Source of the DNA: Escherichia coli | GTDB taxonomy: Bacteria; Pseudomonadota; Gammaproteobacteria; Enterobacterales; Enterobacteriaceae | DNA length: 64,000 nucleotides | Reading direction: 5' to 3' (one strand) | Assembly: GCF_050320075.1 (NCBI RefSeq) | Contig: NZ_CP190018.1 | Part shown: one piece after another, positions 60,001 through 63,000 of the stretch | Layout: the number at the start of each line of letters is the position of its first letter | Numbering within the stretch: position 1 is the stretch's first letter | Position numbers: made by a program

Positions 60001-63000
60001 GGTGAGCAACGCGTCAGCCTGAAAGCCCGCCTGATCAAGGTGGACTGGATAAAAATAGGCCAGGAGCAGGTCTATAAGGCTGAAAAAGCGGAGTCCCAGC
60101 CACCGAGCCATGGCACCACAAAACGTGAATACGCAGAAGACTCCTTCTGATCGCGTATTTTTCTCACTGCCTCCCTGATAAAGAAAACAGACCACCATCA
60201 GGGAGGTCTGTTTTCTTATTGTTTTTACTGAACTTTAAGGAAACAAATTATGACTTCTACAAACGGTATTCTCGCAGCTGCGGCAGGTTATACATTACCT
60301 CTGGAAATACTCAAAAGTGGGCGCGGATATTATATTGGCACTCAGTGTTCTGAAGGACCGGTATCCCGTGAATCAGAAGAGTATTTCAAAAAATATGAGC
60401 AGGCTGAGCGGACGCTGAAAAATGGCACCTGGACACAACGTCATGCCTGGTAATGAGGAGGTGCTATGGCTTCACGCGGCGTAAACAAAGTTATCCTGAT
60501 AGGACATCTGGGGCAGGATCCGGATATCCGGTATTTCCCCAATGGCGGTGGCGCTGTGGCGAATCTGTCACTGGCGACCAGCGACACCTGGCGGGATAAA
60601 CAGAGCGGTGAAATGAAGGAAGTTACTGAATGGCACCGCGTTGTTCTCTATGGAAAACTGGCTGAAGTTGCCGGCGAGTACCTGCATAAGGGGTCGCAGG
60701 TGTATATAGAAGGCCAGCTTAAAACCCGTAAATGGTTTGACCAGCAGAATGGTGTGGACCGTTATTCAACTGAGGTTGTTGTGGGCGTGAATGGTGTCAT
60801 GCAGATGCTGGGTTCATCGCGTCAGCAGGGCGCTTCCGGTAATGGTGCTTCAGCACTGGCACAAGGGGGCCAGGGACATCCGCCGAAGACGACCGGACAG
60901 ACTGGTCGTGCCACCCGGACGACGTCAACGGGTAATGGTGCTCCACCAATGGACTTTGACGATGATATCCCCTTTATGGGGCTCGGGTATGGCATGGAAC
61001 GACGAATTATTCATGCCATGTAATATTAACCACGGGGCGTTACGCCCCACTTTTTTATCCGGAGGTTCCGTGAGTGAAAAAGTTAACAAAATCACTATGA
61101 TTCATGACGGGGCGTTCAAGAAGACGCTTGAAGATCCCGCCGCAGTAAGGGACTTTCTTGAACAGGTCTTGACACACGATCAGATATCCCGCTGTAATCT
61201 TGATACAATAGAAGTTGAAAAGAATTCGTTCGTGACGGAAAGTTTGCGTCAGCATGCCTGTGATGTTTTGATCAGCATGAAGACAAACGACGGCAGGGAC
61301 GGATACATTTATACCTTAATCGAGCACCAGAGTTCGCCGGATAAATTCATCCCGCTGCGTATGATGCGATATATCCTGGCTGTAATGGAGCAACATGTTG
61401 AAAAGCATAAGTGTGCACCTGTGGTGATCCCCGTGTTGTTTTATCATGGTGCAATGCGGCCATATCCGTATCCGCTGAACTGGGTGGATTGTCTGGATGA
61501 CCCGGAGTACGGACGGGAGATTTATGGCGAGTCAAAGTCATTCAGTCTGGTGGATGTCAGTACGCTTGATGATGATGAAATTGAGCAGTATCGCCGGATG
61601 GCGGCGCTGATGTACACCATGAAGTCCGGAACTCAGGGTGATTTGATTGAGCTGATTGGTAAATCGATCACACTGACGGATAAGTATGGCAGTAGCATTC
61701 ACCTGAATACGGTGCTTACTTATCTGATGGAACTTTACCAGATGGATGTTGCTGAACTTTTTGAAGCAATATCCACACACTATCCCAGCCATAAGGGGGT
61801 GATTATGACGATAGCGGAACAACTGGAAGAGAAAGGTCGGGTTGAAGGTCTGGAGAAAGGCCTTGAGAAAGGCCTTGAGAAAGGCCGTGCTGAAGGCCGT
61901 GCTGAAGAGCGTCAAAAAGCGCTTGCAGAAACTTATGCATCTGTCCGTCGCATGAGCGATATGGGGATGTCAACGGAAGTTATTAAGCAGGCACTTCATC
62001 TTTCTGATGAACAGATTCAGGAAGCGCTTAATAATTAACCTCGCATCGTAATGATGTGGCAGAGCGCGACTGATGCGTCAGAACGTGTGATGCCCTGTGA
62101 ACACAGCGCCTGCCATTGTGCAGGCGTTTTTTTATCAATCAGTCTGGTAAATTGTGATGGAACTTTACCAGATGGATTTTGCTGAACTTTCTGAAGCAAT
62201 ATTCACACACTATCCCAGCCACAAGGGGGTGATTATGACGATAGCGGAACAACTGGAAGAGAAAGGCCTTGAGAAAGGCCGTGCAGAAGAGCGTCAAAAA
62301 GCGCTTGCAGAAACCTATGCATCTGTCCGTCGCATGAGTGATATGGGGATGTCAACAGAAGTTATTAAGCAAGCTCTTCAGCTTTCTGATGAACAGATTC
62401 AGGAAGCGCTTAATAATTAACCTCACATCGTAATGATGTGGCAGAGCGCGACTGATGCGTCAGAATGCGTGATGCCCTGTGAACACAGCGCCTGCCATTG
62501 TGCAGGCGTTTTTTTTGTCAACCGGAAATCAGTTGTTCATTGAGCCTTCCCTCACTTCTTCTGCAAATTGACCTCTGACTTTATCACTTCACTGCAGAGG
62601 TAATTCCCTGATGAAAATATCCCTTCTTTTTTCCGCGCTGTCTGCCTGTGTGTTGCTGGCGGGGTGCCAGAGTCCGCAAAAACTGCAGCAGAGGGCGGCC
62701 GCCGTCCCGGTACCGTCGGTGACAGTCAGCAACAATGTCCGTCCGGCAAATCCGGATGTGTACGCCGGTGCGGCGACACCGGAGGTGGTGCGTTATGACC
62801 GCTATCTGCTGGTTAACACGGCACCGGATACGGTACAGCGTGACCCGCTTTCCCAGGTGATTGACATCCGCATTCCGGCATCACTGAAGCCGACGGTGGC
62901 GGATGCGATGCGTTATGCCCTGAAACAGTCCGGCTACACACTCTGCGCCACGGGGCCTGCCAACGGCGTGCTCTACCGTCAGCCGTTACCGGCCGTGCAG

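What the first reader, a model, noticed from the sequence alone, without database searches (positions are those of the whole stretch)
61067..62520. Rpn-family nuclease gene with duplicated 3' end creating a separate C-terminal-domain ORF
The last roughly 100 codons of the Rpn gene plus its terminator are duplicated about 20 bp downstream, giving an 88-aa ORF with its own start. The copies differ mainly by the number of 12-bp GLEK/GRAE-coding units. From memory, Rpn proteins are toxic PD-(D/E)XK nucleases with anti-phage activity that are restrained by a small protein made from their own 3' end; a physically separate copy of that domain could act as an extra antitoxin dose or reflect slippage at the repeats.
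Basis: partly seen in the sequence, partly recalled or inferred. Interest (0 to 1): 0.7.

Follow-up and report, generated by a model that had tools for sequence, protein, structure and literature searches.

The report
Rpn nuclease gene with spare antitoxin copy
An E. coli mobile element carries a toxic Rpn nuclease gene followed by a duplicated copy of its tail (the part that encodes its built-in antitoxin); the duplication is real, but this arrangement was published in 2023, so this is a further example rather than a discovery.

Summary
Window 61726-62133 (the last 104 codons of a 322-aa Rpn gene plus its terminator) recurs at 62156-62515 after a 22-nt spacer. The copies share 96.1% identity, with 14 substitutions and one 48-nt (4 x 12 nt) length difference.

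The gene is a true Rpn/YhgA-like PD-(D/E)XK nuclease. It lies on an SPI-7/PFGI-1-type ICE between ssb and pilL2.

The arrangement matches the published "rpnSs" layout (Zhong et al. 2023, PNAS; K-12 rpnE-ypaA). There, a stand-alone copy of the intragenic antitoxin RpnS sits downstream of rpn.

Three refinements:
- The likely product is 61 aa, starting at the conserved internal start ATG 62235 (strong Shine-Dalgarno), not the 88-aa ORF.
- The nuclease has 6 four-residue units and the downstream copy has 2. Across 13 two-copy haplotypes the counts vary independently. Published data show a one-unit mismatch abolishes neutralisation, so "extra antitoxin dose" is doubtful.
- Single-copy alleles carry the downstream copy's array and tail, so they are recombinational fusions.

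Expression and function remain untested. I rate it a new member of a known kind, of modest interest.

The parts
61070..62038 (+). rpnL: 322-aa Rpn (YhgA-like) PD-(D/E)XK nuclease. GTG start, with GGAGG Shine-Dalgarno at 61061-61065.
   Evidence: Pfam PF04754 Transposase_31, E 1.1e-60. TIGR01784 scores 124.4 bits against a cut-off of 52.1. D13, D65, E85 and Q87 align with RpnA D11, D63, E82 and Q84. The PGAP CDS is identical. SD:anti-SD energy is -10.2 kcal/mol.
61805..62038 (+). Predicted intragenic rpnS: 77 aa in the rpnL frame, starting at internal start M246 (MTIAEQLEEK...).
   Evidence: M246-T247-A249 are invariant in the alignment with K-12 RpnA, RpnC and RpnE, and align with RpnA M244, the experimentally verified internal start. 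The SD AAGGGGGTGATT gives -12.6 kcal/mol, in the top ~1% of 2423 ATG/GTG sites in the window.
61835..61906 (+). Array of six 12-nt units in copy 1, encoding GRVE-GLEK-GLEK-GLEK-GRAE-GRAE. It contains perfect tandem 12-mers.
   Evidence: TRF reports period 12 at 61845-61886 and 61881-61907.
61726..62133 (+). Duplicated segment, copy 1 (408 nt): the last 104 codons of rpnL, the stop codon and the 3' region with terminator.
62105..62133 (+). Intrinsic terminator after rpnL (9-bp stem, 6 G-C pairs, T-run).
   Evidence: The 3' region folds at -37 kcal/mol, z = -2.3.
62134..62155 (+). 22-nt junction spacer (ATCAATCAGTCTGGTAAATTGT), absent from single-copy alleles.
   Evidence: Alignment of alleles. 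It is partly complementary to 62164-62178 (I2), at about chance level.
62156..62515 (+). Duplicated segment, copy 2 (360 nt).
   Evidence: 96.1% identical to copy 1, with a 48-nt length difference.
62154..62420 (+). The 88-aa ORF as listed (GTG 62154; PGAP uses ATG 62157, giving 87 aa). Its first 27 codons are probably not translated.
   Evidence: The SD at these starts is -2.8 kcal/mol, the background mean. In allele L011 a 1-nt deletion breaks this long frame but leaves the ORF from the internal start intact.
62235..62420 (+). Probable rpnSs: 61-aa stand-alone copy of the RpnS domain (MTIAEQLEEK-GLEK-GRAE-ERQKAL...).
   Evidence: SD -11.8 kcal/mol. The internal start and its SD are conserved in every copy at all 30 loci that carry this allele family. 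It has the same start motif and length as K-12 YpaA/RpnESs. Tail pN/pS is 0.05-0.16. The AF2 model has a long helix (3-36) plus two short helices, pLDDT 80.
62265..62288 (+). Array of two 12-nt units in copy 2 (GLEK-GRAE), with no perfect tandem repeat.
62487..62517 (+). Duplicated terminator after rpnSs.
60466..61023 (+). ssb of the ICE (upstream neighbour), with its terminator at 61034-61055.
62611..63189 (+). pilL2 (PFGI-1-class ICE type IV pilus lipoprotein), the downstream neighbour.

Best explanation
This is an ICE-borne Rpn toxin-antitoxin (candidate phage-defence) gene followed by a stand-alone 'rpnSs' gene. It is the arrangement already described for E. coli rpnE-ypaA and rpnC-rpnCSs.

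Identity and products. rpnL (61070-62038) encodes a PD-(D/E)XK nuclease. An internal start at 61805 should give the cognate 77-aa antitoxin RpnS, which shares the nuclease's own 6-unit helix. A tandem duplication of the last 408 nt (3' end plus terminator) created a second copy. Its likely product is a 61-aa RpnS-type protein from ATG 62235, not the 88-aa ORF.

Evolution. The two 12-nt arrays change independently by slippage. The copies also exchange sequence by homologous recombination, through conversion tracts and through deletions that fuse the nuclease body to the downstream array and tail.

Function. The downstream copy has 2 units and the nuclease has 6, and unit number sets RpnS-RpnL specificity in the published system. 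The downstream protein is therefore most likely an uncoupled, self-dimerising spare antitoxin module and recombination partner, not a simple extra dose of the cognate antitoxin.

Shown here: the anatomy, family membership, conservation, population pattern and fusions. Inferred: translation from 62235, toxicity, antitoxin activity, and the lack of cross-neutralisation.
For: Family: PF04754 E 1e-60; TIGR01784 above its cut-off; catalytic D13/D65/E85/Q87 conserved (with Kingston 2017).

Duplication.

Published precedent: Zhong 2023 describes RpnS, rpnSs (ypaA), independent origins by duplication, loss by deletion or fusion, and unit number as specificity.

K-12 comparison: ypaA is 61 aa, starts at the homologous MTIAE internal start, and differs from rpnE by one 12-nt unit.

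Start site: the internal start and its SD are conserved in all copies. SD energies are -11.8 kcal/mol at ATG 62235 against -2.8 at GTG 62154 and ATG 62157. The L011 frameshift spares the ORF from the internal start.

Purifying selection on the tail: copy 1 vs copy 2 gives Sd 5, Nd 1, pN/pS 0.05. The comparison of two stand-alone copies gives pS 0.34, pN 0.054.

Haplotypes (nuclease | downstream units): 6|2, 5|2, 6|4, 5|4, 6|3, 6|1, 6|2', 3|8, 3|3, 3|3', 2B|2A, 1B|2B, 4B|2B.

Fusions: the single-copy arrays of L004 and L009 equal the downstream arrays of L015-17 and L022. They also carry the downstream-specific GLAE unit, the Q residue and the 3'-region variants.

Fold: helices 3-36, 41-48 and 52-60; 7TH0 (RpnA-S) ranks second in Foldseek.
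Against: No expression data exist for this locus. A terminator precedes copy 2, and neither the consensus scan nor my position-weight-matrix scan finds a sigma-70 promoter above background in 62100-62240.

The specificity rule (a one-unit mismatch abolishes neutralisation) was shown for RpnC only, and by overexpression.

The fold match to 7TH0 is statistically weak (E 0.64). The Pfam DUF4351 family, which the paper links to some stand-alone copies, does not match.

Gene conversion from copy 1 could keep copy 2 intact without selection on copy 2 itself.

The direction 'fusion' rather than 'ancestral single copy' rests on parsimony, not proof.
Confidence: 0.75

Rival explanations
1. Extra antitoxin dose. 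The downstream copy makes more of a functional inhibitor of the upstream nuclease, buffering its toxicity on the ICE.
For: The tail domains of the two copies differ by one residue, H/Q. K-12 RpnESs is expressed, and RpnS proteins inhibit RpnL. The tail is under purifying selection.
Against: The unit counts are 6 and 2. Adding one unit to RpnC-S or RpnC-L abolished neutralisation. On one nuclease background (6 units) the downstream copy has 1, 2, 3 or 4 units. Only 1 of 13 two-copy haplotypes has identical arrays, and that one shows a conversion tract. In L005-type alleles the downstream copy even has a different tail type from the nuclease.
Confidence: 0.2
2. Functionless by-product. The copy is a recent duplication remnant behind a terminator, unexpressed, and kept looking intact only by its youth and by gene conversion from copy 1.
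For: No promoter is detectable and a terminator lies upstream. K-12 ypaA is annotated as a pseudogene. The N-terminal 27 codons of the long ORF are variable, and the frame is broken in L011.
Against: The ORF from the internal start and its SD are intact in every copy 2 at the 25 two-copy loci surveyed (13 haplotypes), including L011. The comparison of two stand-alone tails gives pN/pS 0.16 at pS 0.34, so the copy is not young. There is a fixed H/Q difference between the copies. The two-copy state is the majority state in this ICE family. The published homologue YpaA is translated.
Confidence: 0.2
3. Diversity cassette. The downstream copy is maintained because recombination with it lets the nuclease and its intragenic antitoxin switch array length and tail in one step.
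For: Two independent fusions carry different downstream arrays (L004 with 4 units, L009 with 8). There is a conversion tract in L008 and a tail-type swap in L005. The paper suggests Rpn nucleases may themselves start such recombination.
Against: Fusion destroys the cassette, so it is a one-way event. Recombination between 96%-identical direct repeats 430 nt apart is expected anyway. There is no evidence that the fused alleles are favoured; 3 of the first 60 listed complete genomes carry them.
Confidence: 0.2
4. Assembly artefact or transposase/IS remnant, as many database entries name these proteins.
For: Many records call the small protein 'transposase'.
Against: The structure is present in dozens of independent complete genomes and hundreds of contigs. 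No terminal inverted repeats flank rpn. Zhong 2023 argues that Rpn proteins are not transposases.
Confidence: 0.01

Closest known systems
E. coli K-12 rpnE-ypaA (rpnE / rpnESs), Zhong et al. 2023 PNAS (PMC10400941)
   Same: A stand-alone copy of the RpnS domain lies directly downstream of an rpn gene on the same strand. It is derived from that gene's own 3' end. It starts at the homologous MTIAE internal start with its SD, gives a 61-aa product, and differs from the upstream copy in the number of 12-nt units.
   Different: In K-12 the duplication begins at the SD, and the copy lies 13 nt after the rpnE stop with no terminator between. Here the duplication is 408 nt. It includes 79 nt upstream of the internal start plus the whole 3' region and terminator, and a 22-nt spacer separates the copies. 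Identity is 96% here against 84% in K-12. The unit difference is 4 here against 1. The location is an ICE rather than the core chromosome. The nuclease here keeps all catalytic residues, whereas K-12 RpnE is annotated as inactive.
RpnL/RpnS intragenic toxin-antitoxin (RpnA, RpnB, RpnC, plasmid RpnP2)
   Same: A PF04754 nuclease with a D...D...ExQ catalytic core. There is an in-frame internal start at the conserved MT(I/L)A motif. A hypervariable 4-aa repeat starts at residue 11 of the small protein. The predicted fold is a long first helix plus two short helices.
   Different: Only 37-39% identical to K-12 RpnA, RpnC and RpnE, so it is a separate clade. It sits at a fixed position (ssb-rpn-pilL2) in SPI-7/PFGI-1-type ICEs. 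No activity data exist for this clade.
Silent-cassette variation systems (for example Neisseria pilE/pilS), as an analogy only
   Same: A promoter-less partial copy near an expressed gene can donate a variable 3' segment by homologous recombination.
   Different: Only one cassette is present. The observed events are mostly deletional fusions rather than non-reciprocal conversion. There is no evidence of programmed or high-frequency switching.

Membership tests
Rpn / YhgA-like nuclease (PF04754, TIGR01784, COG5464) | Transposase_31 (YhgA-like) domain | tested here: met
   PF04754 E 1.1e-60, residues 12-204.
Rpn / YhgA-like nuclease (PF04754, TIGR01784, COG5464) | Score above NCBIfam's curated cut-off for the Rpn family model | tested here: met
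   TIGR01784 scores 124.4 bits against a cut-off of 52.1. It falls below the equivalog cut-offs for RpnA and PRK09956 (about 200 bits against 583), so it is not an RpnA orthologue.
Rpn / YhgA-like nuclease (PF04754, TIGR01784, COG5464) | Catalytic residues equivalent to RpnA D11, D63, E82 and Q84 | tested here: met
   D13, D65, E85 and Q87 are invariant in alignment A2 with K-12 RpnA, RpnC and RpnE. The residue list comes from Kingston 2017.
Rpn / YhgA-like nuclease (PF04754, TIGR01784, COG5464) | DNA endonuclease activity, toxicity, SOS induction, anti-phage effect | not testable with these tools
   Needs experiments. PADLOC-DB v2 gave no relevant hit, which is uninformative.
RpnS intragenic antitoxin | In-frame internal start with SD at the conserved MT(I/L)A motif | tested here: met
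   M246 aligns with RpnA M244. SD energy is -12.6 kcal/mol.
RpnS intragenic antitoxin | Four-residue repeats beginning 8-20 residues after the initiating Met, with number varying between strains | tested here: met
   Repeats begin at residue 11. There are 1-8 units across alleles.
RpnS intragenic antitoxin | Three-helix bundle with a long first helix (PDB 7TH0) | tested here: inconclusive
   AF2 gives pLDDT 80 with helices 3-36, 41-48 and 52-60. In Foldseek 7TH0 ranks second, but with E 0.64, probability 0.80 and TMt 0.62. BLASTP against RpnA-S gives E 0.003. The profile hit is circular.
RpnS intragenic antitoxin | Separate translation, and direct inhibition of the cognate RpnL | not testable with these tools
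   No expression or biochemical data for this locus.
rpnSs (stand-alone downstream RpnS gene, for example ypaA) | Separate ORF immediately downstream of rpn, on the same strand, derived from that gene's own 3' end | tested here: met
   96.1% nt identity to the upstream 3' end, against 27-30% aa identity to YpaA and RpnE-S.
rpnSs (stand-alone downstream RpnS gene, for example ypaA) | Retains the internal start and SD, so a protein of RpnS size can be made | tested here: met
   ATG 62235, SD -11.8 kcal/mol, 61 aa as for YpaA.
rpnSs (stand-alone downstream RpnS gene, for example ypaA) | Protein detectable in cells | not testable with these tools
   Shown only for K-12 YpaA in the paper.
DUF4351 (PF14261) | Match to the Pfam model | tested here: not met
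   No PF14261 hit for the 322-aa protein or the 88-aa ORF, even at E <= 10.
Insertion sequence / transposase | Terminal inverted repeats and target-site duplication around the gene | tested here: not met
   No flanking inverted repeats in 60000-64000. The flanks are identical in alleles with different rpn content.

The most novel reading that the evidence does not exclude
The downstream copy may be neither a redundant antitoxin nor junk. It could be a maintained donor cassette: recombination with it re-programmes the repeat length and tail of the nuclease and of its obligatorily matched intragenic antitoxin in one step. This would give the ICE a built-in way to change toxin-antitoxin (and possibly phage-trigger) specificity. 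A variant of this reading is that the mismatched small protein acts on a different Rpn allele met during ICE transfer.
Probability: 0.2. Interest if true: 0.6.

Novelty: new member of a known kind. Interest (0 to 1): 0.3.

Why it matters
Rpn systems are a recently recognised toxin-antitoxin/anti-phage family. Specificity lies in a hypervariable repeat shared by the toxin and its intragenic antitoxin.

The role of the stand-alone downstream copies (rpnSs) has not been addressed experimentally. I found no follow-up in the held literature.

This ICE locus offers an unusually rich natural series for testing that role:
- 13 two-copy haplotypes with uncoupled unit numbers;
- two tail types;
- conversion tracts;
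- two independent fusions.

With these one could ask whether rpnSs is a cognate inhibitor, an orphan module or a recombination partner. As a sequence finding in its own right it is an expected, already annotated arrangement.

Tried and rejected
(1) Promoter for copy 2. Neither the consensus scan nor a position-weight-matrix scan of my own found anything above the window's background (best 6.8 against a background mean of 5.9, sd 2.6). Expression cannot be argued from sequence.

(2) Relaxed selection on the 27 codons before the internal start. Copy 1 vs copy 2 gives 3 nonsynonymous and 1 synonymous change there, against 1 and 5 in the tail after the repeats. However, two of the three changes (V>F, F>S) are the residues of functional full-length type-B Rpn proteins. 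I dropped this as evidence.

(3) PDB profile search. It hit 7TH0 at E 8e-14, but RpnA-S was in the query alignment, so the hit is circular. The single-sequence search found nothing.

(4) Pfam DUF4351, PADLOC and Rfam gave no meaningful hits for the small ORF or the duplicated 3' region.

(5) Searches outside E. coli. There was no match in plasmids. The genome-contig scans, by DNA pattern and by protein, found nothing. A representative-library search with the 61-aa query gave only 18 hits.

(6) Spacer origin. The 14-nt match to 61538-61551 and the 15-nt inverted repeat with 62164-62178 are about what chance gives (my estimate), so no formation mechanism can be inferred from them.

(7) Mapping the rest of the window onto NZ_CP190349.1. 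This failed to the left of ~44500, where the sequence differs. That record's type I R-M island is not in this window.

(8) Modelling hetero- versus homodimers. I did not attempt this, because the tool predicts single chains only.
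Full report
OBSERVATION

A 322-aa ORF runs from GTG 61070 (GGAGG at 61061-61065) to the stop at 62038. Its last 313 coding nt, the stop and 95 nt of 3' region ending in a hairpin plus T-run (61726-62133, 408 nt) recur at 62156-62515 (360 nt) after a 22-nt spacer.

A global alignment gives 14 substitutions, 96.1% identity and one 48-nt length difference equal to four 12-nt units. TRF finds period-12 arrays only in copy 1. Both terminators are detected. The 88-aa ORF (GTG 62154 to 62420) is real.

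The structure is not an artefact. Of 5426 complete E. coli genomes, 41 cover at least 80% of the locus. Most of these carry both copies, at 99-100% identity or as a ~90%-identical allele. The exact 87-aa PGAP protein (WP_001696688.1) is on 306 contigs. An 82-aa call of the same allele is listed in 2202 blocks of the assembly collection.

WHAT THE GENE IS

The long protein matches Pfam Transposase_31/YhgA-like (PF04754, E 1.1e-60). It also passes NCBIfam's curated cut-off for the Rpn family (TIGR01784, 124 bits against 52).

In an alignment with K-12 RpnA, RpnC and RpnE it is only 37-39% identical. It nevertheless keeps D13, D65, E85 and Q87. These are the equivalents of RpnA D11, D63, E82 and Q84, whose mutation abolishes activity (Kingston et al. 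2017, PMC5350276).

The locus lies on an SPI-7/PFGI-1-class integrative conjugative element. The gene order is parA, dnaB-PI, parB, STY4528, topB, STY4534, ssb, rpn, small ORF, pilL2. Every related E. coli ICE examined has an rpn gene at this position. There is no match in the plasmid collection. Two scans of one-genome-per-species contigs found no close relative.

WHAT IS ALREADY KNOWN

Zhong et al. 2023 (PNAS, PMC10400941) reported the following:
- rpn genes are toxin-antitoxin systems.
- The small C-terminal protein RpnS is translated from an internal start and blocks the toxic full-length nuclease RpnL.
- Both proteins carry a hypervariable run of four-residue repeats in a long dimerisation helix.
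- An RpnC-S with one extra repeat no longer neutralises RpnC-L, and vice versa.
- A plasmid Rpn protects against T-even phages.

They also describe stand-alone copies, 'rpnSs', downstream of rpnE (ypaA, detected as a protein) and of rpnC in some strains. These arose independently from their own upstream genes. [quoted passage not shown]

The 'physically separate copy' is a published arrangement. I found no later work on the role of rpnSs in the held library.

THE LIKELY PRODUCT IS 61 AA, NOT 88 AA

Met246 of the nuclease (ATG 61805) lies in an MT(I/L)A motif. This motif is invariant in RpnA, RpnC and RpnE, and it aligns with RpnA M244, the experimentally proven internal start.

The motif is preceded by AAGGGGGTGATT. 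The computed SD:anti-SD pairing is -12.6 kcal/mol in copy 1 and -11.8 kcal/mol at the equivalent ATG 62235 in copy 2. Both are in the top ~1% of 2423 ATG/GTG sites in the window. GTG 62154 and ATG 62157 give -2.8 kcal/mol, which is the background mean.

The start and its SD are conserved in every copy at all 30 loci that carry this allele family. In allele L011 a 1-nt deletion just upstream breaks the long frame but leaves the ORF from the internal start intact.

K-12 ypaA starts at the homologous MTIAE codon and is also 61 aa. One database entry already annotates a 61-aa form (ADI47090.1).

An AF2 model of the 61-aa protein (pLDDT 80) has a long helix (3-36) and two short ones. RpnA-S (7TH0) ranks second in a Foldseek search, but with a weak E-value (0.64). 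The fold test is therefore only consistent, not decisive.

POPULATION PATTERN

I parsed the arrays after MTIAEQLEEK at 36 loci. The two-copy haplotypes (nuclease | downstream) are:
- 6|2 (this window), 5|2, 6|4, 5|4, 6|3, 6|1, 6|2 (GRAE-GRAE) and 3|8.
- 3|3 with identical arrays, and 3|3 with different units.
- In a second lineage with a different tail ('type B'): 2B|2A, 1B|2B and 4B|2B.

Ten of the 13 haplotypes differ in unit number. On one constant 6-unit nuclease the downstream copy has 1, 2, 3 or 4 units. In one lineage the downstream copy even has a different tail type from its nuclease. Unit numbers in the two copies are therefore not kept matched.

The downstream tail is nonetheless conserved. 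Copy 1 vs copy 2 shows 5 synonymous and 1 nonsynonymous difference (pN/pS 0.05). Two stand-alone copies from different lineages give pS 0.34 and pN 0.054. There is also a fixed H (nuclease) / Q (downstream) difference among type-A tails.

RECOMBINATION BETWEEN THE COPIES

The single-copy alleles L004 (4 units) and L009 (8 units) have the copy-1 variants upstream of the array. Their arrays, however, are identical to the downstream arrays of L015-17 and L022, including the GLAE unit that is otherwise seen only in downstream copies. They also have the Q residue and all downstream-type variants in the tail and 3' region. They are most simply deletional fusions of copy 1 to copy 2.

L008 shows a conversion tract that has made both arrays identical.

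Two junction types exist. Copy 2 in the type-B lineage starts 93 nt further 5' and has a different spacer. The duplication is therefore either old and remodelled or arose twice.

INTERPRETATION

The identity (Rpn nuclease, predicted intragenic RpnS, and stand-alone rpnSs) is well supported.

On how it works, I commit to the following. The nuclease and its 77-aa intragenic RpnS form the cognate pair, because they necessarily share the 6-unit helix. The 61-aa downstream protein, with 2 units, is an uncoupled paralogue. By the published one-unit rule it should not neutralise this nuclease efficiently. The copies diversify independently by 12-nt slippage and exchange segments by homologous recombination, and fusion installs a new array and tail in the toxin-antitoxin gene.

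My rough probabilities for the rival readings are:
- It acts as an extra antitoxin dose: about 0.2.
- It is an unexpressed relic: about 0.2.
- It is maintained as a donor cassette: about 0.2.

The main weaknesses are these. No promoter can be recognised and a terminator precedes copy 2. The specificity rule comes from one paralogue under overexpression. Gene conversion could mimic purifying selection.

VERDICT

This is a new member (an ICE-borne clade) of a known kind of arrangement, already annotated in RefSeq. Interest is modest. Its value is as a natural allele series for testing what rpnSs genes do.

Noticed in passing
window 59365-59518 (+): Rfam STAXI RNA (RF01728, 139 bits against a gathering score of 40.5), between topB and the STY4534-family gene of the ICE, about 1.5 kb upstream of rpn.
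   Followed up: no
window 9092-9313 (-): Rfam C0719 sRNA (RF00117, 298 bits), in the chromosomal part of the window.
   Followed up: no
window 44528-44605 (-): A 78-nt element next to parA. PGAP annotates the identical sequence in another genome as tRNA-Ser, but ARAGORN calls no tRNA anywhere in the window. From memory, its 3' ~48 nt look like the 3' half of E. coli tRNA-Phe, so it is probably an att-site remnant marking the parA-side end of the ICE. kps group 2 capsule genes lie just to the left.
   Followed up: partly
window 62134-62155, with 62164-62178: The 22-nt junction spacer is absent from single-copy alleles. It is 13/15 complementary to the start of copy 2 (TTTACCAGATGGATT). This could be a template-switch footprint, but by my estimate the match is about chance level.
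   Followed up: partly
L005/L006/L012 (NZ_CP075852.1 and others), locus positions ~1121-2482: In a ~90%-identical ICE lineage the nuclease has a different C-terminal tail (ERSRLVLMMRQKGKSLEE...NGALNQD), while the downstream 117-aa ORF carries the window-type tail. The toxin and the stand-alone copy are therefore of different tail types.
   Followed up: partly
L011 (NZ_LR134079.1), locus 2580-3021: The downstream copy has a 1-nt deletion just before the internal start. The long ORF is split, and the 66-aa ORF from the internal start is annotated by PGAP as a 'DUF433 domain-containing protein'.
   Followed up: yes
L020 1-1382; also H63 NZ_CP123240.1: In some genomes an rve-type (IS) integrase gene abuts a 5'-truncated rpn (282 aa) while the downstream small gene is intact. 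In H63 the match to the window starts only at query position 254. These may be nuclease-dead loci that keep both antitoxin-type ORFs.
   Followed up: no
proteins P0042 and P0046: Distant relatives from other Rpn clades show two RpnS-type modules in tandem within one called protein, or a tail followed by a second MT(L/M)AE module. Similar 3'-end duplications therefore occur elsewhere.
   Followed up: no
window 61024-61069: rpn starts only 46 nt after ssb, directly behind the ssb terminator (61034-61055), and no sigma-70-like promoter scores above background. How the nuclease itself is transcribed is unclear.
   Followed up: no
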